Under the pieces are notes generated by a model. It was given only the letters and a program-made list of their open reading frames with translations, did no database searches and was not told where the DNA came from. Below are positions 1 to 8,848 of a stretch of 57,867 nt of DNA, piece by piece. Positions within the stretch are counted from its first letter, which is position 1, and each line of letters begins with the position of its first letter. Origin of the DNA: an uncultured Thermoplasmata archaeon (lineage in GTDB: Archaea; Thermoplasmatota; Thermoplasmata; Halarchaeoplasmatales; Halarchaeoplasmataceae); NCBI GenBank assembly GCA_964394465.1, contig CAYMXS010000004.1, positions 16,905 through 74,771 on the forward strand, in the 5' to 3' direction. The translations under genes were made by a program, and so were the position numbers.

Positions 1-133
1 CTATACAAAGCTCGGAACCGCCGTTCTCTACTTTCAGTTCTCTGTCTTCCGGCCTCTCTAAATTCAGACCTGCCTCCTTCAACAGATCGTAACTTTTTTC
101 GAACAGCCGCCCCTTTGGAAGTACTACTTTCAT
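1..133 (-). CDS. hisG: ATP phosphoribosyltransferase, probably short form (partial, runs off window start)
   Basis: Manual translation of minus strand from ATG at 133: MKVVLPKGRLFEKSYDLLKEAGL..., containing the HisG N-terminal LPKGRL motif. ATGA overlap with the hisZ stop. Confidence 0.9.
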   Translation of the reverse strand, partial: MKVVLPKGRLFEKSYDLLKEAGLNLERPEDRELKVENGGSELCI

Positions 134-1026
134 CCTTTCACCTCTACAGATATACCGTTCTCGACCAGCTGTTTCGCCACCCTGTAAGATTCCTTCAGGT
201 CGCCTTCCACTTCACGACGGTCCTCTCCCTTTTCACCGTCAGTTCGTTGATAAAGCTCCAGCAACGGCTCCAGCTTGAAGGCGAAGCCTACCGCCTCCTT
301 CCCGTTCACCTCATAAGCGCCTCCAGCCCCTATCGGATAGCCGACTTTTGGGGAGTAAACCTCGAAGATTATGTCCTCGTAGTAGGAGAACGGCCGTATA
401 GTTCCCAGGTCTATGAATATCCTCTCATCGTTCAATATCTTTGAGAGTTCGTTCAGCCTCTCATGATCGCTCTCTTTGCCTCTGAAATTGAACAGCTCCC
501 ACAGCTCTTCCTTCTTCTCCTCCGGTATGGACATCTCCTCTATTGTGCCGAAGTTCCTCTTCTCTAGAGCTTCAAATATCTCTTCTTCGTATTCCGATAC
601 TTCTTCAACAGCTTTTTCCCATACCTTTAGATTTCCCACGTCAACATAGAAATCATCTATGCCCAGAGATTCGAGCGAACTGACGATCACGCTTAGAGCC
701 TCCACTTGCATCTTTCGATTATTTCCACCTATGTACTCGAAGCCGGCCTGCCACTCGCCCTCTAGACCGTCCAGTACCTCAGAAACGTAGTAAAGGCGAA
801 GGTCTTCCGGTTCCTTCAGGTTCTTCACTATCTGTGAAGTTATGTCGGGTTTAACAAGGTAAAACTCGTTATCCCTGGCCAGTTTCATCCCCTTTCTCAC
901 TTTCTTATCATAAGGCTCTATAGCGGGCAAAAAGACCTCGCTGTAGTTCCAACTGTTAAAGACCCTTCTCAGCTTTTTGGTGACTTCCGCCGTCCGTAGA
1001 GACTCTGATATGATGTCCTTTTTCAT
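130..1026 (-). CDS. hisZ: ATP phosphoribosyltransferase regulatory subunit (HisRS paralog)
   Basis: HisRS-like motifs (VKPDITSQI, QAGFEYIG, YYEDIIFEVY, GAGGAY, AVGFAF), no anticodon-binding domain, directly upstream of hisG. Confidence 0.9.
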   Translation of the reverse strand: MKKDIISESLRTAEVTKKLRRVFNSWNYSEVFLPAIEPYDKKVRKGMKLARDNEFYLVKPDITSQIVKNLKEPEDLRLYYVSEVLDGLEGEWQAGFEYIGGNNRKMQVEALSVIVSSLESLGIDDFYVDVGNLKVWEKAVEEVSEYEEEIFEALEKRNFGTIEEMSIPEEKKEELWELFNFRGKESDHERLNELSKILNDERIFIDLGTIRPFSYYEDIIFEVYSPKVGYPIGAGGAYEVNGKEAVGFAFKLEPLLELYQRTDGEKGEDRREVEGDLKESYRVAKQLVENGISVEVKG

Positions 1027-1109
1027 GTTAGACCCTCTTCTAGATGTATTTTGAACTGGTTCAGAAAAGTTGTAAGATTAGATGAGATAACACTACAGCT
1101 AGATAAAAA

Positions 1110-1247
1110 GTAGGATATGGAACAAATCAGAATCAAAAAAATCTGAGAATCTAGATTTTCGAGCAACTCAATGATGAACGTATTGCCCCTTCTCTCTGTC
1201 GCATGAAGGGGCGTGTACCATCTTTTCACGAGCTGCTAGTTCCATAT
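1110..1247 (-). promoter_or_regulatory. Putative attenuator-like structured leader of the his operon
   Basis: Stems 1205-1212/1185-1192 (8 bp perfect), 1229-1237/1162-1170 (9 bp with G-U) and 1239-1247/1115-1123 (9 bp perfect, covers the leader ATG). U7 tract at 1135-1141. Confidence 0.55.
1168..1245 (-). CDS. Putative his operon leader peptide, 25 aa: MELAAREKMVHAPSCDREKGQYVHH
   Basis: ATG at 1245 about 27 nt downstream of the TTATAAAT box. Ends CAT CAT TGA. Located between the promoter and hisZ. Too short for the ORF track. Confidence 0.6.
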   Translation of the reverse strand: MELAAREKMVHAPSCDREKGQYVHH

Positions 1248-1270
1248 AATCGAAGGTATATCTTGTAGGT

Positions 1271-1287
1271 AATTTATAAGGTTTTGG
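1271..1287 (-). promoter_or_regulatory. Archaeal BRE/TATA promoter for the his operon
   Basis: Minus strand CCAAAACC-TTATAAATT upstream of the leader ORF. Confidence 0.6.
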
Positions 1288-1370
1288 TTAGTGAGAAACC
1301 AGACCACTAAATGGATAAAGGGTAAATTTATTATAACACATAATCGACTTTTAGGGTGAGGGAAAATTAG

Positions 1371-4300
1371 ATGAGTCAAGACCCTCCTGAACCAGACGAA
1401 AACGCATCGCCTAACAGAAAATGCCCTAATTGTGGAAAAGAAACTTTAGTTATAGAGGATGATTTTTCTGCACACTGTGAATCTTGTTCTTATGAGGTGG
1501 AGGGCATAAATAGAAGTGGAGATGGAGAAGGGACACCTTCGGAGGATATCCCGCCGGAACCAAAACCACCTGAGGTTATGGGCCGAGCCGCCGAAGGAAA
1601 GGAGAAGGAATCGATTTCAAAGGACGATTTTATCGAAAATCTCAAGACAGTTAAAGGGGTAGGTCATAGCACTGCCGAAGATATCTATAACTCTGGATTT
1701 GAAAATTTTGATGATATCATAGATACAGAGATCGACGAACTGGAGGGTATAAGGAACGTAACAAGGGAAAAAGCCGAGCAGATTAAGGAACTCGCAGAAG
1801 ATAAGACTAAAACTGAAAAGGAAAAAAAAGAAGTTGAAAATGAAGAGGTCCCACCGCCCGCAGAGACATCAGGGCCTGAAACTCCGCCACCTCCGCCCGG
1901 TGAAGGGGTACCCCAGGATGGAGCGCAGCCAAAGGTGGTCAAGAAAAAACTCGCTGATGAAACACCACCCCCACCAGAAAGCGACAATGCAGGAAATGAA
2001 AATGAGGATGTGGTAGTGGAAGGTCCCATACCCAAGAAAAAAGTAAAGAAAAAAGAACAAAAACAGCCTCCCCCTCCGTCCGACTTCGATGTTGAACCTC
2101 CCGAATCAAAAGAGGAAGAGCCTGAAAGACAGCCGGGCCAACCCACAGAGGACGGGATACCATGGGAGACCACACCACCTCCGCCGGAAGAGATAGAAGA
2201 GGATAGCCCACAGGAGGCAGAGATGAAGAGCGAGTCGGGGCCGTCGGTGCCTCCCCCGCCGGAGAGCTTAGCTCCGGAAGAAAATATACAGGATATAGAG
2301 ACGCCTCCAAAACCCGAAGGGATCCCCGTTGAGGAGGAAGGGGAAGAAGAGAGCCCAGAAGAAAAGGAAAAGAGATTAGATGAGAAGGAAGAGAAACTCA
2401 AGGAATTCGAAGAGGAACTGGATAAATACCACGAGAAATTGGATGAGAAAACAGCAGACCTGAAAGAAGAGAAGAGGATGATAGATGATAAAGAAGGAGA
2501 CCTCAAGAAGTGGGAGGAGAGCATCCAAGAAGAGAAAGATGAGCTGGAAGATAAGAAAAGACCCTTGATGGAAAAAGAAGTAGAGCTGGAAGAATGGGAG
2601 ACCGAATTGGAGGAGAGAGAAGACGAAGTCGAGAAACATCTTAAGGAAGTCGAGGAAGAAAAACAGGATATCGAAGATAGAGAAAAAAGCCTCGACGTGA
2701 GAGCCGACGAACTCTCAGAGTGGGAGAATACCCTACAAGAGAAGGAAGAAAGACTCGATAACAGGAAAGAAGAGATAGAACACTGGGAGAACGGTCTGAA
2801 AGAGACAGAGAAGATGTTGGACGAGAGAGAGGACGAACTCCAGAATTGGGAGCAGGACATACAAGAAGAAGAGGATGAACTGGAGAAGAAGAAAAAGCCG
2901 CTTATGGAAAAGGAAGCAGAATTGGAGGAATGGGAGATAGAACTGGAGAAAAGAGAGAACGACGTCGAAAAGCAACTGAAAGGGGTCAAGGAAGAGGGAA
3001 AGAGACTCAGCGAAAAGGCCCAGGATCTCGACGAAAGAGAGATAAAGCTCGGGGAGCTAGAAGACGAACTCCAGGAGAAGGAAAAAGATATCGAGGAGAG
3101 AAGATCAGAACTTGAACAGTGGGAGAATGGACTTCAAGATACAGAGGAGATGCTGAGTGTAAAAGAAGATGAATTATCAGAGAAAGAGGAAACCCTGCAG
3201 GAAAAGGAATCCGTCCTGAATGAATGTGAGGGGGAACTCGACGAGAAAGCCGAGGAACTAGGCGACTGGGAAGCAGACCTACAGGAGAGAGAAGATAAGA
3301 TCGAAGAAAATCTAGAAAAGATCAAAGAAGAAAGAAAGGAGCTCAACGAGAAAGAGAAGGAGATCGAAAACAGAGAGGATGAGATCGAGGAGAACAGAGA
3401 GGAGATAAAGGCAGAAAGAGAAGAGATAGAAGAAAAGAGAAACAAACTTGAGGAAAGAGGGCAAGAGATAGAAGAGGAAGAGGAAAGACTCGATGAAAAG
3501 AGAGAAGAGTTACAGGAGAGAGAAGATAAAATAGAGGATAAAGAGAACACCCTGGAATACAGAGAAGAAGACCTACAGACGTGGGAAGACAATCTAAAAG
3601 AGAAAGAGAAAGAGGTCAACCAAAAACTGGATGAAGTGAAGGAAGAGAGAGAAGCTGTAGAAGAAGAGAAAGTCAAGATAGAAGAGAAGGAGACCGAGAT
3701 CGAGGAGAGAGAAGATAAAATAGAGGATATAAAGGTGAATCTGGAGAAGAAGAGAAAAGAACTTCAGGAAAGAGAGAATAAGATAGAAGAAGAAGAAGAA
3801 AGACTAGAGAAGAAGAAAGAGAGGTTCAAACAGAGGACTACCGAGCTGGACAACAGAGAGGAAAAATTGAACGAGAAAGCCAAAGAGATAGGGAAGCTGA
3901 GAGAGACACTGAAGGAGAAAAGAGACGAAGTCTCAGAAAGAGTAGAAAAATTGAAAAATCGAAACGAGGAGCTGAAAGAGAAACTAGAGGAAACAGAGGA
4001 GAAGAAGGAGAAATTCCAGGAGAAGAAAGAGGAGTTCGAAGAGAAGAACAAAGAACTGGTGGATTGGGAAGTAGAACTGGAAGATATGGAAGACTGGTTG
4101 GACAAGCGAGAGGGTGAACTAAGAGAGAAAAAAGATGCTCTGAACGAGAGAGAAAGTAAATTGGATGATAGAGAAGAGAAGATAGATAAGAAGGAAGAGG
4201 AGCTTGAAGATAAAGAAGAAGAGGTTTCTGAGAGACTCCAGAAACTCAGAGAGAGAAAGGACGAGATCGAGGAGAAGAAGGAAGAACTCAATGAGAGACT

Positions 4301-4526
4301 GGAAAAGGTCAAGGAGAGGAATAAATCTCTCAAGGAGAAGAAGAAGAAACTACAGGAAGCTAGAGAGAAAGTAGACAGAGAGAAGATAAAGGACCCCTTG
4401 AGGGTACAACGCCTCCTAGAGGACGGCTATTCAAAGGAAGAGATCTCTAACTTCACTGGCCTCTCCATTGACGAGGTCGAGGAATACGTCGACGTTATAG
4501 AAAAGTTCCACGCCAAGAAAGATTGA
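1371..4526 (+). CDS. Large acidic coiled-coil protein: N-terminal Zn ribbon, helix-hairpin-helix, Pro-rich linker, ~700-aa coiled coil, C-terminal HTH-like motif
   Basis: CPNC...CESC; VKGVGHSTAEDIYNSGF (HhH); repeated PPPP motifs; E/K heptads; LLEDGYSKEEISNFTGLSIDEVEEY; SD GGGTGAGG before the ATG. Confidence 0.85.
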   Translation: MSQDPPEPDENASPNRKCPNCGKETLVIEDDFSAHCESCSYEVEGINRSGDGEGTPSEDIPPEPKPPEVMGRAAEGKEKESISKDDFIENLKTVKGVGHSTAEDIYNSGFENFDDIIDTEIDELEGIRNVTREKAEQIKELAEDKTKTEKEKKEVENEEVPPPAETSGPETPPPPPGEGVPQDGAQPKVVKKKLADETPPPPESDNAGNENEDVVVEGPIPKKKVKKKEQKQPPPPSDFDVEPPESKEEEPERQPGQPTEDGIPWETTPPPPEEIEEDSPQEAEMKSESGPSVPPPPESLAPEENIQDIETPPKPEGIPVEEEGEEESPEEKEKRLDEKEEKLKEFEEELDKYHEKLDEKTADLKEEKRMIDDKEGDLKKWEESIQEEKDELEDKKRPLMEKEVELEEWETELEEREDEVEKHLKEVEEEKQDIEDREKSLDVRADELSEWENTLQEKEERLDNRKEEIEHWENGLKETEKMLDEREDELQNWEQDIQEEEDELEKKKKPLMEKEAELEEWEIELEKRENDVEKQLKGVKEEGKRLSEKAQDLDEREIKLGELEDELQEKEKDIEERRSELEQWENGLQDTEEMLSVKEDELSEKEETLQEKESVLNECEGELDEKAEELGDWEADLQEREDKIEENLEKIKEERKELNEKEKEIENREDEIEENREEIKAEREEIEEKRNKLEERGQEIEEEEERLDEKREELQEREDKIEDKENTLEYREEDLQTWEDNLKEKEKEVNQKLDEVKEEREAVEEEKVKIEEKETEIEEREDKIEDIKVNLEKKRKELQERENKIEEEEERLEKKKERFKQRTTELDNREEKLNEKAKEIGKLRETLKEKRDEVSERVEKLKNRNEELKEKLEETEEKKEKFQEKKEEFEEKNKELVDWEVELEDMEDWLDKREGELREKKDALNERESKLDDREEKIDKKEEELEDKEEEVSERLQKLRERKDEIEEKKEELNERLEKVKERNKSLKEKKKKLQEAREKVDREKIKDPLRVQRLLEDGYSKEEISNFTGLSIDEVEEYVDVIEKFHAKKD
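2500..3200 (+). repeat. Internal ~336-bp (112-aa) tandem duplication in the coiled coil
   Basis: PLMEKEVELEEWETELEERE at 2562 recurs as PLMEKEAELEEWEIELEKRE at 2898. WENGL also recurs at the same spacing. Confidence 0.8.
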
Positions 4527-4548
4527 CGTATAAAACCGGGCGGACACC

Positions 4549-4580
4549 CTTCTTTCTTTTTACTCTTTTTTACCACTTTT
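4549..4580 (+). terminator. Oligo-T terminator
   Basis: T-rich tracts immediately after the 4526 stop. Confidence 0.55.
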
Positions 4581-4611
4581 AACTACTACTGGATTCTTTA
4601 CAACTGGCCTC

Positions 4612-4962
4612 TCATGCCTTGTTCTGAAAACCCTTCGGGAAGAAAAGAGAGGCTATAAAGAGAGCCGCTATGCTCAGAGCAGAAACCCAAGTCAATAGGA
4701 CGTTCGCAGGTGGGATCGTGACCGTGGTCATAACGATATATATCAGATAGATTATCAACAGAACGCTGCCGATAGTCACTAGAACATACGCTGACTCCTT
4801 CGTTCCCATGCTCCAATCCTCTACCCCTTCGGGATATCTAAAGCCAAGATAGAGCATCACCGTGTAGACGAGGATAAATATAGCCCAGAGAGGGTTCATC
4901 CCAAGAGAGAGGAGGACGATGAATCCGATCACCGAGAGGAGCAGGAGAAAGGTGTCTTTCAT
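4612..4962 (-). CDS. Small integral membrane protein (~4 TM), last gene of the surface-protein/vWA/AAA operon
   Basis: Four hydrophobic segments. Starts 4 nt after the AAA gene stop. Confidence 0.75.
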   Translation of the reverse strand: MKDTFLLLLSVIGFIVLLSLGMNPLWAIFILVYTVMLYLGFRYPEGVEDWSMGTKESAYVLVTIGSVLLIIYLIYIVMTTVTIPPANVLLTWVSALSIAALFIASLFFPKGFQNKA

Positions 4963-4966
4963 CTAT

Positions 4967-7900
4967 CTAACCCCTCTCCTCCTCGAACTCCTCGGCGGAT
5001 TCGACCATCTCTTCCTTGAGAGAAGGTGTAGTCTCCATGATTACCTCCTCCAGGAGATCCTGTGTTATCCTCTTGGCCTTCCCTTCAGAACCCTCGCTAA
5101 TAGCCCGGATCTTGGCCTCCTCGACACAGCTCTTTATGTCGTCTGAAGTGAAGTCCTCCGTTAGGATTGCCAGATCGTGGTAATCTATGTCGGGATGTGT
5201 AGGTACGCCTTCGAGTCCTTTTCGCAGGAGAGCCTCTTTTCTTTCATCGTCTGGAGGCGGAACGCGGATGGTCTTCTCGAAACGGCCCCTCTCGAACAGT
5301 ATATCCTTTATCTTGTCTGGATAATGCGATGTCGCGACCAGAGCTACGTTGTCGACGCCGTTCACGTCCTCCATCAGGTTCAAAAGAGATGAGAATGCTT
5401 TAGGTCCGGCGATCCCAGATATATCCACACCGGCTATCTCCTCCAATTCCGTGACGGTTATCACTGCAGGAGCCATGTCCCTTACCTCCTTGAAGAGTTT
5501 CTTTACGACACCCCTACCCTCTTCATCGATGGCCTCCTTGAGTTCTCTAGCGGATAGGACTCTCATGGGTATGCCCACATCGTTGGCGGCCGCTTTTATG
5601 AGTGTCTCCTTATCGCAACCCTTGGGACCGTAGAAAAGGACGTTTTTAACACCAGATATGTTGAACTTCTCGACCATATCGGATTCTGTCAACGGATAAA
5701 GGACCTGATTCTTGAGCACGTTCTTCTGTTCCTGAAGGTCCGGCACATCGTCCAGTGTAGTACCTCGGTCCATCTCGGGTTTCTTGGCCTCGTGGACCTT
5801 TCTTTCATATTTCGACTTGACCCGCTCGTATTCCTCCTTCATGCTGGGCGTTATACTCGGACTCATCTGCTTCAAGACCTTGTTGAAGGTGCCCTTGTGT
5901 ATGGGCTTCATATCTCCCGTGTCTATGGCGCTCCTCATGGCCTGTGTGGCGGCTTCCTTTGCCAGGTTGGCCATGTCGGCACCGGAGAAACCCTCCGTCT
6001 TCCTGGCCAAGGCGTCCATGTCGACATCCGAGGAGAGGGGCTTTCCGCTAAGGTGTATGTCCAGTATCTCTTTTCTCGCTTCTTTCTCCGGAGGCGGTAC
6101 GTATATTATCTTATCGAATCTTCCCGGCCTCAAGAGGGCTGGATCCACCATATCCGGCTTGTTCGTAGAACCGACCATGATTATGCCCTCGGCTCTGTCC
6201 ATGCCGTCCAGTTCAGAGAGAAGGAGTGATAGTAATCTCGGTGTCACATCATCAGCCGAATACATATCCCTCTTCTTCGCTATCGCGTCTATCTCATCGA
6301 AGAAGATTATACACGGCTTTCTTTCACGGGCCGCCTTGAACAGTGTCATCATCTTGTCCTCGCTTTCACCATACCATCTCGACATGACGTCACCGCACTT
6401 CACGTTGATCATCTCTACATCTAGTTCGGTGGCTAATGCCTTCATCAGCATGGTCTTTCCACAGCCCGGAGGCCCGTAGAGAAGAACACCTTTAGATGTT
6501 TCAACGCCGAACTTGTCCGATATATCAGGTCGTAGAAGAGGAATGAGTATACTCTCTTTCACCTCTTCCTTCACGTCATCCAAACCGCCTATGTTTTCAA
6601 ATGTCGTTTCGCCAAGGTCGGCCATCTCGGCCACTCGTGTTCCGACATCAGTAATACCGAGCTTGCTCCTGTAGTATTCCTTGAACAGCCCTTTGGTCAT
6701 GGCACCTAGTCCCTGTGAAACGAAGGCTAAAATCACGGATCCCACGATCACGCCTACGGCGACGAGTAGACCGAGGGGCTCTAAGCCGTCGAGATAACCA
6801 AAGTAAACGAGGCCTGGAAGTGATGAAAGACCTAGGACCAATGACCCAGCCACAGAATACCACCAGTCCTTCTTCAACGGGTATTTCAACCAATCCATCA
6901 ACTTCTCCAACCTAGGTTGTCTAGCCTCGATTATCAATGAGACTAAATAAACGCCTACACACCACAACAGTATCTGGAAGAATGGTATGATCGACGCACC
7001 GAAGTTATCGGCTATAACGGTGGTTATGATATTACCTCTAGCAGATGATATGCTGGCCAGTGCTCCACCCAGAGCTCCAGGGGTGAAATCGCTTACGACA
7101 TTTTTGCTGAACAGCATGAATGAAGTGTCATGAGGAGCAGAAGTGACCAGACCGAGTACCTCTAGGTTGCTGGTCGAAGATGCCAGGACCAGGAAGAGTC
7201 CCGCCGCTGCCGTTGAGATCAGCGCGAGATAAGTCGAGAAGAGCACCACGGACATGACTGGGACGAAGAAAACCGCACCGAACCTCGCCAAAAATATGAT
7301 CGAAAAGACCAGATAGCCAAAACGCCAGTCGAAGAAAGAGGCCAATACGACTATCAATGAGAAAACCAGGAATACTAGACCGAATTCCGGGGTTTGATAC
7401 GCCGCGGCCCCGGTGACTAGCAGTGCCAGGATTATCAGCGCATTGTAGGGATACTTGTAAGCCACAGCACCCACGACTATCGACAGAGTGAGAACCATCC
7501 ACCAGGGATAGAACGGTATGAAGGCTAAACCGAATATAGAGAGCAGGAAGAAGCCTGCGGGGATTATATATTCCGGGTCCATGGTCTCATTTATGATGGC
7601 CTCCCATATCTTACCGGTCAAGGTCCCCTTGTTAAGATCCTCTATATTGGTATCCTCCTCCGTCAGGGCCATCCTTTTCTCATGTTTTTTCTTGTAAACC
7701 GACCATAGGCATACTAGAGGGACGAAAACAGCACCGAAAACTCCAGCTATCAGATAGTTCTGTGGAAAAGCTATATTGTCATGTTCAAGAGTGGATTTAG
7801 GACTTATATCGAACCTGAAGGTCGCCTCCTCACCCGACTCCATCCCGGTCAACTGTATCGACTTGCTCTTCTCTTCACCGGAGTAGATGGTGGTCAATGT

Positions 7901-8848
7901 ATACTCGCCGGGACTTAGAGGTGTGGACACCTGAACCTTTCCGTTATCAGTGGTACCTTCGAAGACAACGCCGCTGCTGTTCTCCACTCTCACAGTAGCT
8001 TTATCCACGTACTCGTTGTTGAGTTCATCGAAGACAACGATCAGTGGTTTGACGAACTGAGCACCTCTTCCCACGGTATATGAATAGTTCTGTGACTGAA
8101 TCCTCTCTCCGTAGGTGTCGAAGGCCGCTACATGAAACGAAACCGAGGTGTTCTCTGGATAGGCCGGTATTGTGGTGGTCCATTCCCCGTTATCCTTCTC
8201 GAAAGCACTGCCGCCCTCCTGGGGTGAACTATCCGGCTGTTGGATAGTAGCGATGAGATTCACGTTATTCACTACGATATCCTCGGATGTTTTGCTGACG
8301 GTGATCTCCACGGATTCGTTGGATTTAGGGCCCTTCGGCTCAAAATCCAATCCAAGGTTATCTGAGAACTCATCTGAGGTCCAACCTCCGGTCTTCTGGA
8401 CGGTATACGTGTACGCATCTGATCTATACCATTCGGTGCCATCTATAGTGGCGTTCACCCAGAATTTGATCGTCCAGCCACCCTGGTTCCACTGCTTGGG
8501 TATCCACCCTCTCATAACGGTTTTGTTCGAACCATAGGTGAACTGATAATCGGAATCCACTCCTCCAGAATCGCTGAAATCATCCATCTCTTCCGTCTTG
8601 TAACTGAATATCAGGTGGGCGTCCGATATATTTTCTGAAGTTGTGCTAGTCAGGGTTATCTCCACAGTTTCGTTATGCTCTGGATTCTCCGGCGAATAAG
8701 ACACGGAAAAGAGCCCATCGAAGGACTGTTGAGACAGCTGGGCCTTATCCTCGTTAAGTTGAGTTCCGTTTGTAAAAAGGCCTAGATTGGCAATCACTAA
8801 TATGCCTAATATAACAGCTATTATGATATAACTTATCTTTCGTTCCAT
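4967..8848 (-). CDS. Polytopic membrane protein with extracellular beta-rich domains fused to tandem CDC48-like AAA+ domains
   Basis: N-terminal signal/anchor; ~340 aa Ig-like region with NxS/T sequons; multi-TM block. D1 has GPPGCGKT, IIFFDEID, SRWYGESE and DPALLRPGRFD. D2 is degenerate (GPKGCDKET, VITVTELEE, ERGRFE). Confidence 0.9.
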   Translation of the reverse strand: MERKISYIIIAVILGILVIANLGLFTNGTQLNEDKAQLSQQSFDGLFSVSYSPENPEHNETVEITLTSTTSENISDAHLIFSYKTEEMDDFSDSGGVDSDYQFTYGSNKTVMRGWIPKQWNQGGWTIKFWVNATIDGTEWYRSDAYTYTVQKTGGWTSDEFSDNLGLDFEPKGPKSNESVEITVSKTSEDIVVNNVNLIATIQQPDSSPQEGGSAFEKDNGEWTTTIPAYPENTSVSFHVAAFDTYGERIQSQNYSYTVGRGAQFVKPLIVVFDELNNEYVDKATVRVENSSGVVFEGTTDNGKVQVSTPLSPGEYTLTTIYSGEEKSKSIQLTGMESGEEATFRFDISPKSTLEHDNIAFPQNYLIAGVFGAVFVPLVCLWSVYKKKHEKRMALTEEDTNIEDLNKGTLTGKIWEAIINETMDPEYIIPAGFFLLSIFGLAFIPFYPWWMVLTLSIVVGAVAYKYPYNALIILALLVTGAAAYQTPEFGLVFLVFSLIVVLASFFDWRFGYLVFSIIFLARFGAVFFVPVMSVVLFSTYLALISTAAAGLFLVLASSTSNLEVLGLVTSAPHDTSFMLFSKNVVSDFTPGALGGALASISSARGNIITTVIADNFGASIIPFFQILLWCVGVYLVSLIIEARQPRLEKLMDWLKYPLKKDWWYSVAGSLVLGLSSLPGLVYFGYLDGLEPLGLLVAVGVIVGSVILAFVSQGLGAMTKGLFKEYYRSKLGITDVGTRVAEMADLGETTFENIGGLDDVKEEVKESILIPLLRPDISDKFGVETSKGVLLYGPPGCGKTMLMKALATELDVEMINVKCGDVMSRWYGESEDKMMTLFKAARERKPCIIFFDEIDAIAKKRDMYSADDVTPRLLSLLLSELDGMDRAEGIIMVGSTNKPDMVDPALLRPGRFDKIIYVPPPEKEARKEILDIHLSGKPLSSDVDMDALARKTEGFSGADMANLAKEAATQAMRSAIDTGDMKPIHKGTFNKVLKQMSPSITPSMKEEYERVKSKYERKVHEAKKPEMDRGTTLDDVPDLQEQKNVLKNQVLYPLTESDMVEKFNISGVKNVLFYGPKGCDKETLIKAAANDVGIPMRVLSARELKEAIDEEGRGVVKKLFKEVRDMAPAVITVTELEEIAGVDISGIAGPKAFSSLLNLMEDVNGVDNVALVATSHYPDKIKDILFERGRFEKTIRVPPPDDERKEALLRKGLEGVPTHPDIDYHDLAILTEDFTSDDIKSCVEEAKIRAISEGSEGKAKRITQDLLEEVIMETTPSLKEEMVESAEEFEEERG

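What the first reader, a model, noticed from the sequence alone, without database searches (positions are those of the whole stretch)
1027..1287. Candidate histidine leader-peptide attenuator in an archaeon
Seen: TATA box, then an essentially leaderless 25-codon ORF (1245-1168) with three His codons, two of them tandem right before the stop. The ORF folds into a long hairpin (GCCCCUUC/GAAGGGGC core; AGCAGCUCG/UGAGUUGCU base spanning the stop codon). A small hairpin and U7 follow. GUUCCAUAU at 1123-1115 is perfectly complementary to the start region AUAUGGAAC. hisZ-hisG begins ~140 nt after the leader stop. Known: ribosome stalling on His codons controls bacterial his operons, archaea couple transcription and translation, and they terminate at U-tracts or via FttA/aCPSF1. 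To my knowledge leader-peptide attenuation is not experimentally established in archaea. Inference: His starvation stalls the ribosome at CAU-CAU and permits read-through. Caveat: only two tandem His codons.
Basis: partly seen in the sequence, partly recalled or inferred. Interest (0 to 1): 0.85.

Follow-up and report, generated by a model that had tools for sequence, protein, structure and literature searches.

The report
Conserved histidine leader ORF in archaea
A tiny upstream reading frame ending in histidine codons sits in front of the histidine-synthesis operon of this archaeon and is kept in many relatives, which makes it a strong candidate for the bacterial trick of sensing an amino acid by ribosome stalling, so far not demonstrated in archaea.

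Summary
On the minus strand a TATA box (1279-1272) precedes a 25-codon ORF (1245-1168) that ends CAT-CAT-TGA. The ORF folds into the stated hairpin, and a T7 run (1141-1135) and a 9-nt complement of the start region (1123-1115) follow. Downstream is a nine-gene his operon, hisZ-G-D-B-H-A-F-IE plus a HAD hydrolase.

Of 61 non-identical hisZ loci, 35 carry a sense-strand uORF with at least 2 His in its last 8 codons, against 2 of 61 on the antisense strand. In 20 of 20 representative leaders the last His codon stays in frame with an ATG at least 15 codons upstream. ORF lengths range from 24 to 43 codons, and shuffles reach this at 0.04-0.19 each. The nearest metagenomic relatives, probably archaeal, end in three or four tandem His codons. 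T5+ runs follow the uORF stop in 11 of 15 leaders of the window's family, against a background of 0.14.

Stalling, termination and histidine response are all untested, and no RNA data exist. I read this as a ribosome-mediated His-sensing leader. The output step, U-tract termination or something else, is still open. In one genome alone the ORF would be weak evidence: 22 of 1105 uORFs pass the same His filter.

The parts
1272..1279 (-). TATA-box-like promoter element (TTATAAAT), about 31 nt upstream of the uORF ATG; implies a nearly leaderless uORF
   Evidence: Read. Relatives have TATA-like boxes at comparable positions upstream of their uORFs. The transcription start is inferred from textbook archaeal spacing and was not measured.
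1168..1245 (-). Leader ORF (uORF): 25 codons plus TGA, peptide ending ..Tyr-Val-His-His
   Evidence: Homologous uORFs lie upstream of hisZ in relatives.
1171..1176 (-). Tandem His codons CAT-CAT immediately before the stop: the proposed sensor codons
   Evidence: A Tyr-x-His motif at the uORF end recurs in relatives. In 20 leaders, 48 of 52 His codons are CAT, while the genome's genes use CAT:CAC at 6499:6386.
1213..1215 (-). Third His codon (CAC), codon 11 of the uORF; not conserved in relatives
1185..1212 (-). Core hairpin inside the uORF (arms 1212-1205 and 1192-1185, 8 bp, 12-nt loop)
   Evidence: I3, 100% complementary; MFE.
1162..1237 (-). Long hairpin whose base stem pairs uORF codons 3-6 (1237-1229) with the stop codon and the 6 nt after it (1170-1162)
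   Evidence: MFE and centroid. A ribosome held at 1176-1171 would cover the 3' arm (inference).
1135..1141 (-). T7 run, 27 nt after the uORF stop: candidate archaeal termination signal
   Evidence: T5+ within 50 nt after the stop occurs in 11 of 15 family leaders against a background of 0.138; A5+ in 1 of 15. Poly-U tracts together with aCPSF1 drive archaeal termination (passages of PMC10450193). No 3' end was mapped.
1115..1123 (-). 9-nt perfect complement of the uORF start region (1247-1239), downstream of the T7 run
   Evidence: I1. In relatives the start region also has a downstream partner, but at other places: L002 has 18 nt at 78% next to its T5 run, and L127 has 13 nt at 100% with the first His region.
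1032..1037 (-). Shine-Dalgarno-like GAGGGT, 5-6 nt before the hisZ ATG
   Evidence: Relatives have GGAGG at the same place.
130..1026 (-). hisZ (ATP phosphoribosyltransferase regulatory subunit, 298 aa), first gene of the operon
   Evidence: best family is TIGR00443 hisZ, E 6.9e-37, 127 bits, below the curated cut-off of 272. Orthologues.
2..133 (-). Start of hisG (runs off the window); hisD, hisB, hisH, hisA, hisF, hisIE and a HAD hydrolase follow on the same strand in the contig
   Evidence: L110.

Best explanation
The ORF at 1245-1168 (minus strand) is a hisL-like leader-peptide gene for a nine-gene histidine operon (hisZ-G-D-B-H-A-F-IE-HAD) of a Thermoplasmata-class archaeon.

It is the first ORF of the transcript made from the TATA box at 1279-1272. 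It has almost no 5' leader, so a ribosome can load while the leader is still being transcribed.

Its last two sense codons, CAU-CAU, read the supply of charged tRNA-His.

- When His-tRNA is plentiful, the ribosome reaches UGA and leaves. The long hairpin closes (1237-1229 with 1170-1162), the RNA behind the polymerase is bare, and transcription ends at the U7 tract (1141-1135). Termination could be intrinsic or helped by the archaeal factor aCPSF1/FttA. The operon stays low.
- When His-tRNA is scarce, the ribosome stays on CAU-CAU. It then covers the 3' arm of the hairpin and most of the roughly 30 nt between itself and a polymerase sitting on the U tract. Hairpin formation and factor access are blocked, and the polymerase reads on into hisZ.

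Shown here: the anatomy; conservation of the uORF, its frame and its terminal His codons; and enrichment of T runs in this family.

Inferred: translation of the uORF, stalling, termination at U7, and the direction of the response. An output at the level of hisZ translation or mRNA stability, instead of termination, is a live variant (see rivals).
For: (1) Context. The uORF lies directly upstream of the first gene of a complete his operon.

(2) Conservation across loci found through HisZ, not through the leader.
- 35 of 61 non-identical loci have a sense uORF of 15-50 codons with at least 2 His in the last 8 codons; 2 of 61 do on the antisense strand.
- Six more loci (L008, L010, L043, L052, L056, L084) carry the same homologous uORF but fail that strict filter. 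The cause is an upstream in-frame ATG or wider His spacing.

(3) Frame. In 20 of 20 representative leaders the last His codon is in frame with an ATG at least 15 codons upstream, with no stop between. Lengths are 24-43 codons, so indels came in threes. Dinucleotide shuffles reach this at 0.04-0.19 per sequence. I chose these 20 because they have the uORF.

(4) Pattern of conservation.
- The N-terminal parts diverge freely. The C-terminal Tyr-x-His(-His) is kept.
- Third-position synonymous changes occur in the metagenomic group (Ser AGT/AGC, Tyr TAC/TAT, Cys TGC/TGT; alignment A3).
- The window's ..Tyr-Val-His-His-stop lines up codon for codon with their ..Tyr-Cys/Tyr-His-His-His-stop.

(5) Ribosome-binding signals. 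A GGAG motif lies 7 nt before the uORF ATG in the family alignment (columns 4-7 against 15-17). GGAGGTG precedes it in the metagenomic group. The window itself looks leaderless.

(6) T runs. T5+ occurs within 50 nt after the uORF stop in 11 of 15 family leaders, against 0.138 of 688 random intergenic 50-nt windows of G000. A5+ occurs in 1 of 15.

(7) Codon choice. 48 of 52 leader His codons are CAT. Genes of G000 use CAT:CAC at 6499:6386.

(8) Bacterial parallel. HisZ relatives labelled Thermotogota and Bipolaricaulota carry classical His-rich leader peptides of about 30 codons in the same position. They have sigma-70-like promoters and hairpin-plus-T-run terminators. The HisZ tree interleaves them with the archaeal loci.

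(9) Copy number. The leader model R1 hits exactly one place per genome in 14 of 44 family genomes, as expected of a cis element.

(10) Two adjacent regulatory codons are enough in a classical case: the E. coli trp leader (recalled textbook knowledge, not from a call).
Against: - The window has only two tandem His codons. Its relative L002 keeps a single one. Most family members have two His codons separated by four other codons.
- No bacterial-type terminator is present (0 sites), and no conserved terminator/antiterminator pair was found.
- T5+ runs are not enriched in the tandem-His metagenomic group (3 of 13). U-tract termination therefore cannot be the general output.
- CAU is the reverse complement of AUG, and in the family the first His region pairs with the start-codon region (13 bp, 94% of cells paired). 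Part of the CAT conservation could be an RNA-pairing constraint rather than a codon constraint. Covariation in that helix is weak: 2 pairs with changes on both sides, and 33 of 500 shuffles reach the percentage paired.
- One clade of the family (5 loci) has no uORF and only a palindrome near the promoter.
- In G000 alone, 22 of 1105 uORFs pass the His filter by chance.
- The leader model R1 does not find the window's own leader. Homology of the window's leader to the family type rests on short shared stretches.
- No analogous Trp leader turned up in this genome.
- There are no RNA or ribosome data.
Confidence: 0.55

Rival explanations
1. Same sensor, different output. The uORF senses His-tRNA by stalling, but what changes is hisZ translation or mRNA stability through refolding of the leader (ermC-like translational attenuation), not transcription termination. 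The start-region complement (1123-1115) and the structured 140-nt spacer would be the expression platform.
For: - The metagenomic tandem-His group lacks enriched T5+ runs (3 of 13). It still keeps the uORF and a conserved CTnTTCT block right after it.
- In every lineage the uORF start region has a strong downstream partner, but the partner's position differs.
- The window has no bacterial-type terminator.
Against: - A direct test for an anti-Shine-Dalgarno segment just after the His codons was negative. That window gave the best duplex with the hisZ ribosome-binding region in only 2 of 28 leaders.
- T runs are strand-specifically enriched in the window's own family (11 of 15, against A5+ in 1 of 15). 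That enrichment fits termination.
Confidence: 0.2
2. The leader is a structured RNA element that binds a protein, tRNA or metabolite, or simply folds, and is not translated. The open frame and the CAT triplets are by-products of helices that pair CAUC with GAUG.
For: - The start region and the first His region form a 13-bp helix that is 94% paired in 14 sequences.
- The second His region can pair upstream or downstream.
- In L002 the motif homologous to the family's start codon is followed by a stop after 3 codons, yet it still pairs.
- The use of CAT is almost exclusive.
- The fold z-score is -2.85.
Against: - The reading frame is kept in 20 of 20 leaders despite length changes.
- Shine-Dalgarno motifs sit at the right distance before the uORF.
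- Synonymous third-position changes occur in the conserved C-terminal codons.
- In most of the tandem-His group no upstream AUG-rich partner for the His run is visible in the folds.
- No Rfam family matches, including T-box and His_leader.
- The helix shows little covariation.
Confidence: 0.12
3. In this genome the ORF no longer regulates anything. It is either a decaying remnant of a leader that came with a transferred his operon or a chance ORF, and the operon is controlled by a DNA-binding regulator or by feedback on HisG/HisZ only.
For: - 22 of 1105 uORFs in G000 pass the His filter by chance.
- The window has two sensor codons and L002 has one.
- A palindrome of the type GTGTACA-N4-TGTRCA lies between the TATA box and the uORF or hisZ in many relatives, including those without a uORF. 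It suggests a protein regulator.
- HisZ phylogeny mixes archaea and bacteria.
Against: - The uORF, its frame, its terminal His codons and the T run are kept across genera whose HisZ proteins are only 47-57% identical, while the rest of the intergenic sequence has diverged.
- I did not see the palindrome in the window's own leader.
Confidence: 0.1
4. The ORF encodes a small protein that acts in trans.
For: The ORF is conserved and has ribosome-binding signals.
Against: Only the last 3-8 residues are conserved. Length and the remaining sequence vary freely. There is one copy per genome, always directly upstream of hisZ.
Confidence: 0.03

Closest known systems
Bacterial his operon leader peptide attenuator (hisL of enterobacteria; Rfam His_leader RF00514)
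   Same: A short ORF directly upstream of the first his gene, with His codons clustered at its end. The leader RNA has competing helices that involve the His codons, and a T run lies before the first structural gene. The logic is sensing charged tRNA-His through the speed of a leader ribosome. The mechanism is described in the background passages of PMC9413887.
   Different: - The promoter is an archaeal TATA box, not sigma-70.
- There are 2 (window) to 4 His codons, rather than a long run.
- No GC-rich hairpin abuts the T run.
- No match to RF00514.
- Termination in archaea depends on U tracts and aCPSF1 rather than hairpin terminators or Rho (passages of PMC10450193).
His-leader attenuators predicted in Firmicutes (Bacillus cereus group, Peptostreptococcaceae, Erysipelotrichales)
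   Same: They were found in the same way, as short uORFs with three to five consecutive His codons upstream of his operons. They are also not matched by RF00514 (passages of PMC9413887).
   Different: Those are bacterial, with terminator and antiterminator hairpins. Here the hosts are archaeal and no such pair is evident.
His-rich leader peptides upstream of hisZ in MAGs labelled Thermotogota and Bipolaricaulota
   Same: The downstream gene family (HisZ) is 44-48% identical to the window's and interleaved with the archaeal sequences in the tree. The uORFs are of similar size, 23-31 codons among the single leaders and 19 and 26 codons for the tandem pair in L061. The His codons lie in GAUG/CAUC helices.
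   Different: They have 3-6 His codons, sigma-70-like promoters and hairpin-plus-T-run terminators. Whether leader and operon moved between domains together is not resolved.
Leaderless polycysteine short ORFs that act as cysteine-responsive attenuators in mycobacteria (bioRxiv 10.1101/834739; only the listing and abstract start were seen)
   Same: A leaderless short ORF is the first cistron of a biosynthetic operon, and its amino-acid-specific codons set the expression of the downstream genes.
   Different: Bacterial, cysteine rather than histidine. Mechanistic details were not read here.

Membership tests
Ribosome-mediated amino-acid attenuator (hisL/trpL type) | Short ORF in the 5' leader of an amino-acid biosynthesis operon, first ORF of the transcript | tested here: met
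   The uORF 1245-1168 lies 141 nt upstream of hisZ, the first gene of hisZ-G-D-B-H-A-F-IE. A TATA-like box lies 31 nt upstream. The transcription start was not mapped.
Ribosome-mediated amino-acid attenuator (hisL/trpL type) | Clustered codons for the cognate amino acid in the leader ORF, conserved among orthologous leaders | tested here: met
   The window has CAT-CAT before the stop. 35 of 61 hisZ loci have at least 2 His in the last 8 uORF codons, against 2 of 61 on the antisense strand. The frame is kept in 20 of 20 leaders. Caveat: L002 has one His codon, and one clade has no uORF.
Ribosome-mediated amino-acid attenuator (hisL/trpL type) | Mutually exclusive terminator and antiterminator structures, chosen by ribosome position | tested here: inconclusive
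   Competing pairings exist. The start region pairs with the first or the second His region in L127, and the second His region pairs upstream or downstream. No conserved terminator/antiterminator pair could be defined, and helix P1 shows weak covariation.
Ribosome-mediated amino-acid attenuator (hisL/trpL type) | Intrinsic terminator (GC-rich hairpin directly followed by a U run) before the first structural gene | tested here: not met
   One search found 0 terminator-like sites in 900-1500. A T7 run is present, but only weak AU-rich stems adjoin it. This is the bacterial definition. Archaeal termination needs only a U tract (passages).
Ribosome-mediated amino-acid attenuator (hisL/trpL type) | Read-through that responds to the amino acid and depends on leader translation | not testable with these tools
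   No RNA run holds the region. The organism is known only as an assembled genome.
Rfam His_leader (RF00514) | Match to the covariance model | tested here: not met
   No hit at E up to 10 in window 1-6000. No hit at gathering score in 20 related loci, including the bacterial ones.
T-box riboswitch (RF00230) | Match to the covariance model; specifier loop and T-box sequence | tested here: not met
   No hit. The conserved CAU triplets lie in helices and in an open frame, not in a specifier loop.
Archaeal U-tract (aCPSF1/FttA-assisted) termination signal | Run of at least 5 U on the transcript at the termination site | tested here: met
   T7 at 1141-1135. T5+ occurs in 11 of 15 family leaders within 50 nt of the uORF stop, against 0.138 background.
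Archaeal U-tract (aCPSF1/FttA-assisted) termination signal | Mapped RNA 3' ends at the tract | not testable with these tools
   No RNA holder listed.

The most novel reading that the evidence does not exclude
Leader-peptide attenuation exists in Archaea. A histidine-codon uORF, kept in at least two archaeal lineages, would couple the pace of the first ribosome to U-tract/aCPSF1-type termination or to another archaeal output. The two lineages are the window's Thermoplasmata family and a second group of metagenomic loci with tandem His codons, which is probably archaeal. The element may have crossed domains together with a hisZ-type his operon and then been rewired from a sigma-70 promoter and hairpin terminator to a TATA box and a bare U tract. 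It would be the first amino-acid-sensing attenuator of this kind in the archaeal domain.
Probability: 0.4. Interest if true: 0.9.

Novelty: new variant of a known kind. Interest (0 to 1): 0.8.

Why it matters
Ribosome-mediated attenuation is a textbook bacterial mechanism. It requires transcription and translation to be physically and kinetically coupled.

Archaea do couple the two processes. However, they use a eukaryote-like polymerase and terminate at U tracts with the help of aCPSF1/FttA (passages of PMC10450193). My six library searches found no described archaeal leader-peptide attenuator. One tool paper says in general terms that uORFs regulate in archaea too (PMC10219788, passage).

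A conserved His-codon uORF in front of archaeal his operons gives a concrete and compact test case of about 230 nt. It could show whether a trailing ribosome controls archaeal termination, and how such a device is re-engineered when an operon changes domain.

Tried and rejected
1. Anti-Shine-Dalgarno idea. I asked whether the segment just after the His codons masks the hisZ ribosome-binding site. That window gave the best duplex in only 2 of 28 leaders. I dropped it as a general mechanism.

2. Analogous leaders in the same genome.
- Of 1105 uORFs, 8 had at least 2 Trp in the last 10 codons.
- Seven downstream genes of the Trp- or His-rich uORFs went to Pfam. The four behind Trp-rich uORFs are a nucleotidyltransferase/MarR protein, NMD3, a rhomboid and RIO1. 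One behind a His-rich uORF holds DUF835 and zinc ribbons, and two had no family.
- None is an amino-acid biosynthesis gene. The other four Trp candidates were not checked.
- I did not locate the trp, leu, thr or ilv operons.

3. Regulon. blastn of the leader against G000 found only itself. The best hisC candidate (C8) has a gap of about 50 nt between the upstream ORF's stop and its own start, and no uORF.

4. Expression. No RNA holder is listed for window 1-3000; four DNA runs of one study hold it.

5. Rfam. No family matched.

6. Placing the tandem-His metagenomic group taxonomically.
- Their records are not held as genomes.
- An exact look-up of 10 HisZ translations found nothing, probably because I gave match ranges rather than whole proteins.
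- HisZ searches gave only 4, 2 and 2 genomes with a match. These were 401 genomes of the window's phylum, 43 of G437's phylum and 121 of G401's order. None carried that leader.
- The evidence that they are archaeal is indirect. An AGOG glycosylase gene lies upstream in 2 loci. The nearest Atlas cluster is 82% Archaea (a lead only). L083 and L085 are sister to a Thermoplasmata-class genome in the HisZ tree. They also have TATA-like boxes.

7. The covariance model R1 did not recover the window's own leader or L002.

Supplementary files of papers were not opened, so supplements of PMC9413887 and PMC10450193 could hold leader lists that I did not see.
Full report
**What is in the window**

Read on the minus strand, the 344-nt gap between hisZ (130-1026) and a divergent 1051-codon gene (1371-4526, plus strand) holds these elements:
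- a TATA-like box, TTATAAAT, at 1279-1272;
- a 25-codon ORF at 1245-1168 that ends Tyr-Val-His-His-stop, with CAT-CAT at 1176-1171 and TGA at 1170-1168;
- a further His codon (CAC) at 1215-1213;
- a T7 run at 1141-1135;
- a GAGGG motif 6 nt before the hisZ ATG (1026-1024).

The repeat finder confirms an 8-bp perfect hairpin core (1212-1205 with 1192-1185). It also confirms a 9-nt perfect complement of the start region (1247-1239 with 1123-1115). The MFE of the 234-nt leader contains both, plus the base stem 1237-1229 with 1170-1162, which spans the stop codon. The energy is -59.8 kcal/mol against -46.8 (sd 4.6) for shuffles, z = -2.85, and 0 of 200 shuffles fold as well.

The sigma-70/terminator scan finds no bacterial-type terminator. 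Rfam finds nothing in the region at E up to 10.

Downstream, the contig carries hisZ, hisG, hisD, hisB, hisH, hisA, hisF, hisIE and a HAD-type hydrolase, head to tail on one strand. The ORF therefore precedes an almost complete his operon. hisC lies elsewhere, without such a leader.

**Is it more than chance?**

Within this genome alone the case is thin. Among 1105 ATG-started uORFs of 8-60 codons in 1151 upstream regions, 22 have at least 2 His in their last 8 codons and 2 end in His-His. The decisive evidence is comparative.

**Comparison within the family**

HisZ orthologues (47-57% identity) occur in 11 further genomes of the same family among the 40 relatives searched. Public record titles of the corresponding contigs call them Thermoplasmata or Thermoplasmatota MAGs, including Candidatus Halarchaeoplasma, Natronoplasma and Saliniplasma.

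Upstream of hisZ, 8 of these 11 loci, like the window's own, carry an ATG-started ORF of 24-34 codons read from the family's conserved ATG. Its end reads ..Tyr-Val-His-Leu-stop, or ..His-Leu-x-x-Val-His followed by 1-4 more codons and a stop. The N-terminal parts are unrelated between genera.

More members came from named genome records, from metagenome contigs, and from a covariance model built on 14 of them. That model hits one place per genome in 14 of 44 family genomes. One new, divergent hit (G584, L127) has a 31-codon uORF with His at codons 25 and 30. It has a T6 run 11 nt after the stop, and it shares the stretch just after the stop codon with the window.

A GGAG motif lies 7 nt before the uORF ATG in the family alignment. 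The window's own uORF has no such motif and appears leaderless.

One clade of five loci (L003, L004, L005, L031, L041) has no uORF. Instead it has a short leader with a palindrome.

**A second group with tandem His codons**

The metagenome loci whose HisZ is most like the window's (46-58% identity: L064-L072, L076, L077, L081, L083, L085; also L088 at 49%) have uORFs of 27-43 codons (L081 is cut off at its contig's end). These end in two to four consecutive His codons, either directly before the stop or followed by Leu-Phe-stop. They are preceded by GGAGGTG-like motifs and TATA-like boxes.

Only the last 7-8 codons are conserved. The differences there include third-position synonymous changes (Ser AGT/AGC, Tyr TAC/TAT, Cys TGC/TGT), which is the signature of a translated sequence.

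The window's TAC-GTT-CAT-CAT-TGA aligns codon for codon with their TAC-TGC/TAC-CAT-CAT-CAT-TGA.

That these contigs are archaeal is likely but indirect:
- an AGOG glycosylase gene lies upstream in two of them;
- the nearest Atlas cluster is 82% Archaea (a lead only);
- in the HisZ tree L083 and L085 are sister to a genome of the window's class (G401, support 99).

I could not find this type in 401, 43 and 121 sampled genomes.

**Counts**

- Across all 61 non-identical hisZ loci with enough upstream sequence, 35 have a sense-strand uORF of 15-50 codons with at least 2 His in the last 8 codons. On the antisense strand 2 of 61 do, and those two are near-copies.
- Six more loci carry the homologous uORF but fail this filter (longer frame, or wider spacing of the two His).
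- In 20 of 20 representative leaders the last His codon is in frame with an ATG at least 15 codons upstream. Shuffles give 0.04-0.19 per sequence. These 20 were picked because they have the uORF, so the number speaks to frame maintenance, not to prevalence.
- 48 of their 52 His codons are CAT, while genes of G000 use CAT and CAC equally (6499:6386).
- The last His falls at codon 29 or 30 in 11 of the 20. I cannot explain this.

**Bacterial relatives**

HisZ of MAGs labelled Thermotogota and Bipolaricaulota (44-48% identity) are preceded by classical His-rich leader peptides with 3-6 His codons. Most have 23-31 codons. L061 has two in tandem, of 26 and 19 codons. They have sigma-70-like promoters and hairpin-plus-T-run terminators. 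None matches Rfam His_leader.

The HisZ tree interleaves these with the archaeal sequences, and its backbone is poorly supported (quick method). The gene has therefore crossed domains, but I cannot give direction or say whether the leader travelled with it.

**RNA structure**

In the family the start region pairs with the first His region: 13 bp, 94% of 182 cells paired, against 33-53% when slid. Covariation is slight, however. Two pairs have changes on both sides, and 33 of 500 shuffles reach the percentage paired.

The second His region can pair with an upstream AUG-containing segment or with a downstream segment.

In the window and in L002 the partner of the start region lies elsewhere: after the T7 run in the window, and next to the T5 run in L002.

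The common theme is that the uORF start region always has a strong downstream partner. This would confine uORF translation to the co-transcriptional window. I could not define a conserved terminator/antiterminator pair.

**T runs**

T5+ occurs within 50 nt after the uORF stop in 11 of 15 family leaders, at 11-43 nt. The background is 0.138 of 688 random intergenic windows of G000. A5+ occurs in 1 of 15. In the tandem-His metagenomic group the figure is 3 of 13, which is not enriched.

In archaea, poly-U tracts together with aCPSF1 determine termination (passages of PMC10450193).

In the window the last His codon is about 30 nt upstream of the T7 run. That is roughly the sum of what a ribosome covers downstream of its A site and what a polymerase covers of nascent RNA (textbook footprints; inference). 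A ribosome parked on CAU-CAU would thus abut a polymerase at the U tract and hide the 3' arm of the long hairpin.

**Most likely mechanism**

A His-tRNA-sensing leader peptide. With plenty of His-tRNA the ribosome terminates at UGA and leaves, the leader folds or is exposed, and transcription stops at U7. With scarce His-tRNA the ribosome stalls on CAU-CAU and blocks folding and factor access, so the polymerase continues into hisZ.

I give about 0.55 to this reading as a whole. I give a further 0.2 to the same sensor with a translational or stability output. That variant would fit the tandem-His group better, although my one explicit test of ribosome-binding-site masking was negative.

An untranslated structured RNA gets 0.12. 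It is supported mainly by the AUG/CAU pairing and by L002. A non-functional remnant gets 0.1. A trans-acting peptide gets 0.03.

**Comparison with the known**

The element works like the bacterial hisL/trpL attenuators. It is not a member of Rfam His_leader, lacks a bacterial intrinsic terminator, and sits behind an archaeal promoter.

Similar His-leader predictions exist for Firmicutes (PMC9413887, passages). Leaderless Cys-rich uORF attenuators exist in mycobacteria (bioRxiv 10.1101/834739, abstract start only).

Six full-text searches found no described leader-peptide attenuator in an archaeon. One paper states in general terms that uORFs regulate in archaea too (PMC10219788). The library lacks most subscription journals, so this is not proof of absence.

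**Verdict**

It is a new variant of a known kind and of high interest. It makes the question "can a ribosome control archaeal transcription termination?" testable with a 230-nt element.

**Limits**

- All genomes are MAGs.
- No expression data are available.
- The taxonomy of the tandem-His group is indirect.
- The tree was built with the quick method.
- Supplements of papers were not read.

Noticed in passing
L006, L007, L008, L009, L011, L012, L127 (between TATA box and uORF); L003, L004, L005, L031, L041 (20-40 nt before hisZ): A palindrome of the type GTGTACA-N4-TGTRCA (ATGTACA-N4-TGTACAT in the uORF-less clade) sits at the his promoter in many family members, with or without the uORF. It looks like the operator of a DNA-binding regulator. 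I did not see it in the window's own leader.
   Followed up: partly
L061, L091, L092 (Thermotogaceae-labelled record and two metagenome contigs): Two His-rich leader ORFs in tandem upstream of hisZ (26 and 19 codons, with 4 and 6 His). Each is followed by a GC-rich hairpin and a T7 run, so this looks like a double attenuator. No Rfam family matches it.
   Followed up: no
HisZ tree of 63 loci: HisZ sequences of archaea (Thermoplasmata family, G401, G437/G438) and of bacteria (labels Thermotogota, Bipolaricaulota, Caldisericota) are interleaved at 45-58% identity. This points to transfer of hisZ-type his operons between the domains. Direction is unresolved.
   Followed up: partly
20 representative leaders: The last His codon lies at codon 29 or 30 in 11 of 20 leaders from different subgroups, although the peptides are otherwise unrelated. 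48 of 52 His codons are CAT. No explanation was tested.
   Followed up: no
A3 columns about 206-215 (L064-L085): A conserved CTnTTCT block follows the tandem His codons. It is translated as Leu-Phe in three leaders that lack the intervening stop (L077, L083, L085). In most of the others it lies just after a TGA that occupies one extra in-frame codon. Its role is unknown. It is not a consistent partner of the hisZ ribosome-binding site.
   Followed up: partly
window 1371-4526 (+): The divergent neighbour encodes a 1051-residue protein. It has an N-terminal zinc ribbon, a helix-hairpin-helix domain, proline-rich linkers and about 700 residues of Glu/Lys-rich repeats that look like coiled coil.
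   Followed up: no
window 10335-18026 (-) and 4967-8848 (-): Two very long ORFs of 2563 and 1293 codons, next to a VWA-domain gene (8833-10245). Not examined.
   Followed up: no
L110 1870-3177 (+), i.e. G000:C4 just beyond the end of the his operon: A TrpB-like (TrpB2) pyridoxal-phosphate enzyme gene lies convergent to the last gene of the his operon.
   Followed up: no
L096 (G401, same class, another family): Upstream of its hisZ there is a 19-codon ORF starting about 25 nt after a TATA-like box and ending ..Gln-His-Tyr-stop, with a single His codon. It may be a degenerate relative of the leader.
   Followed up: no
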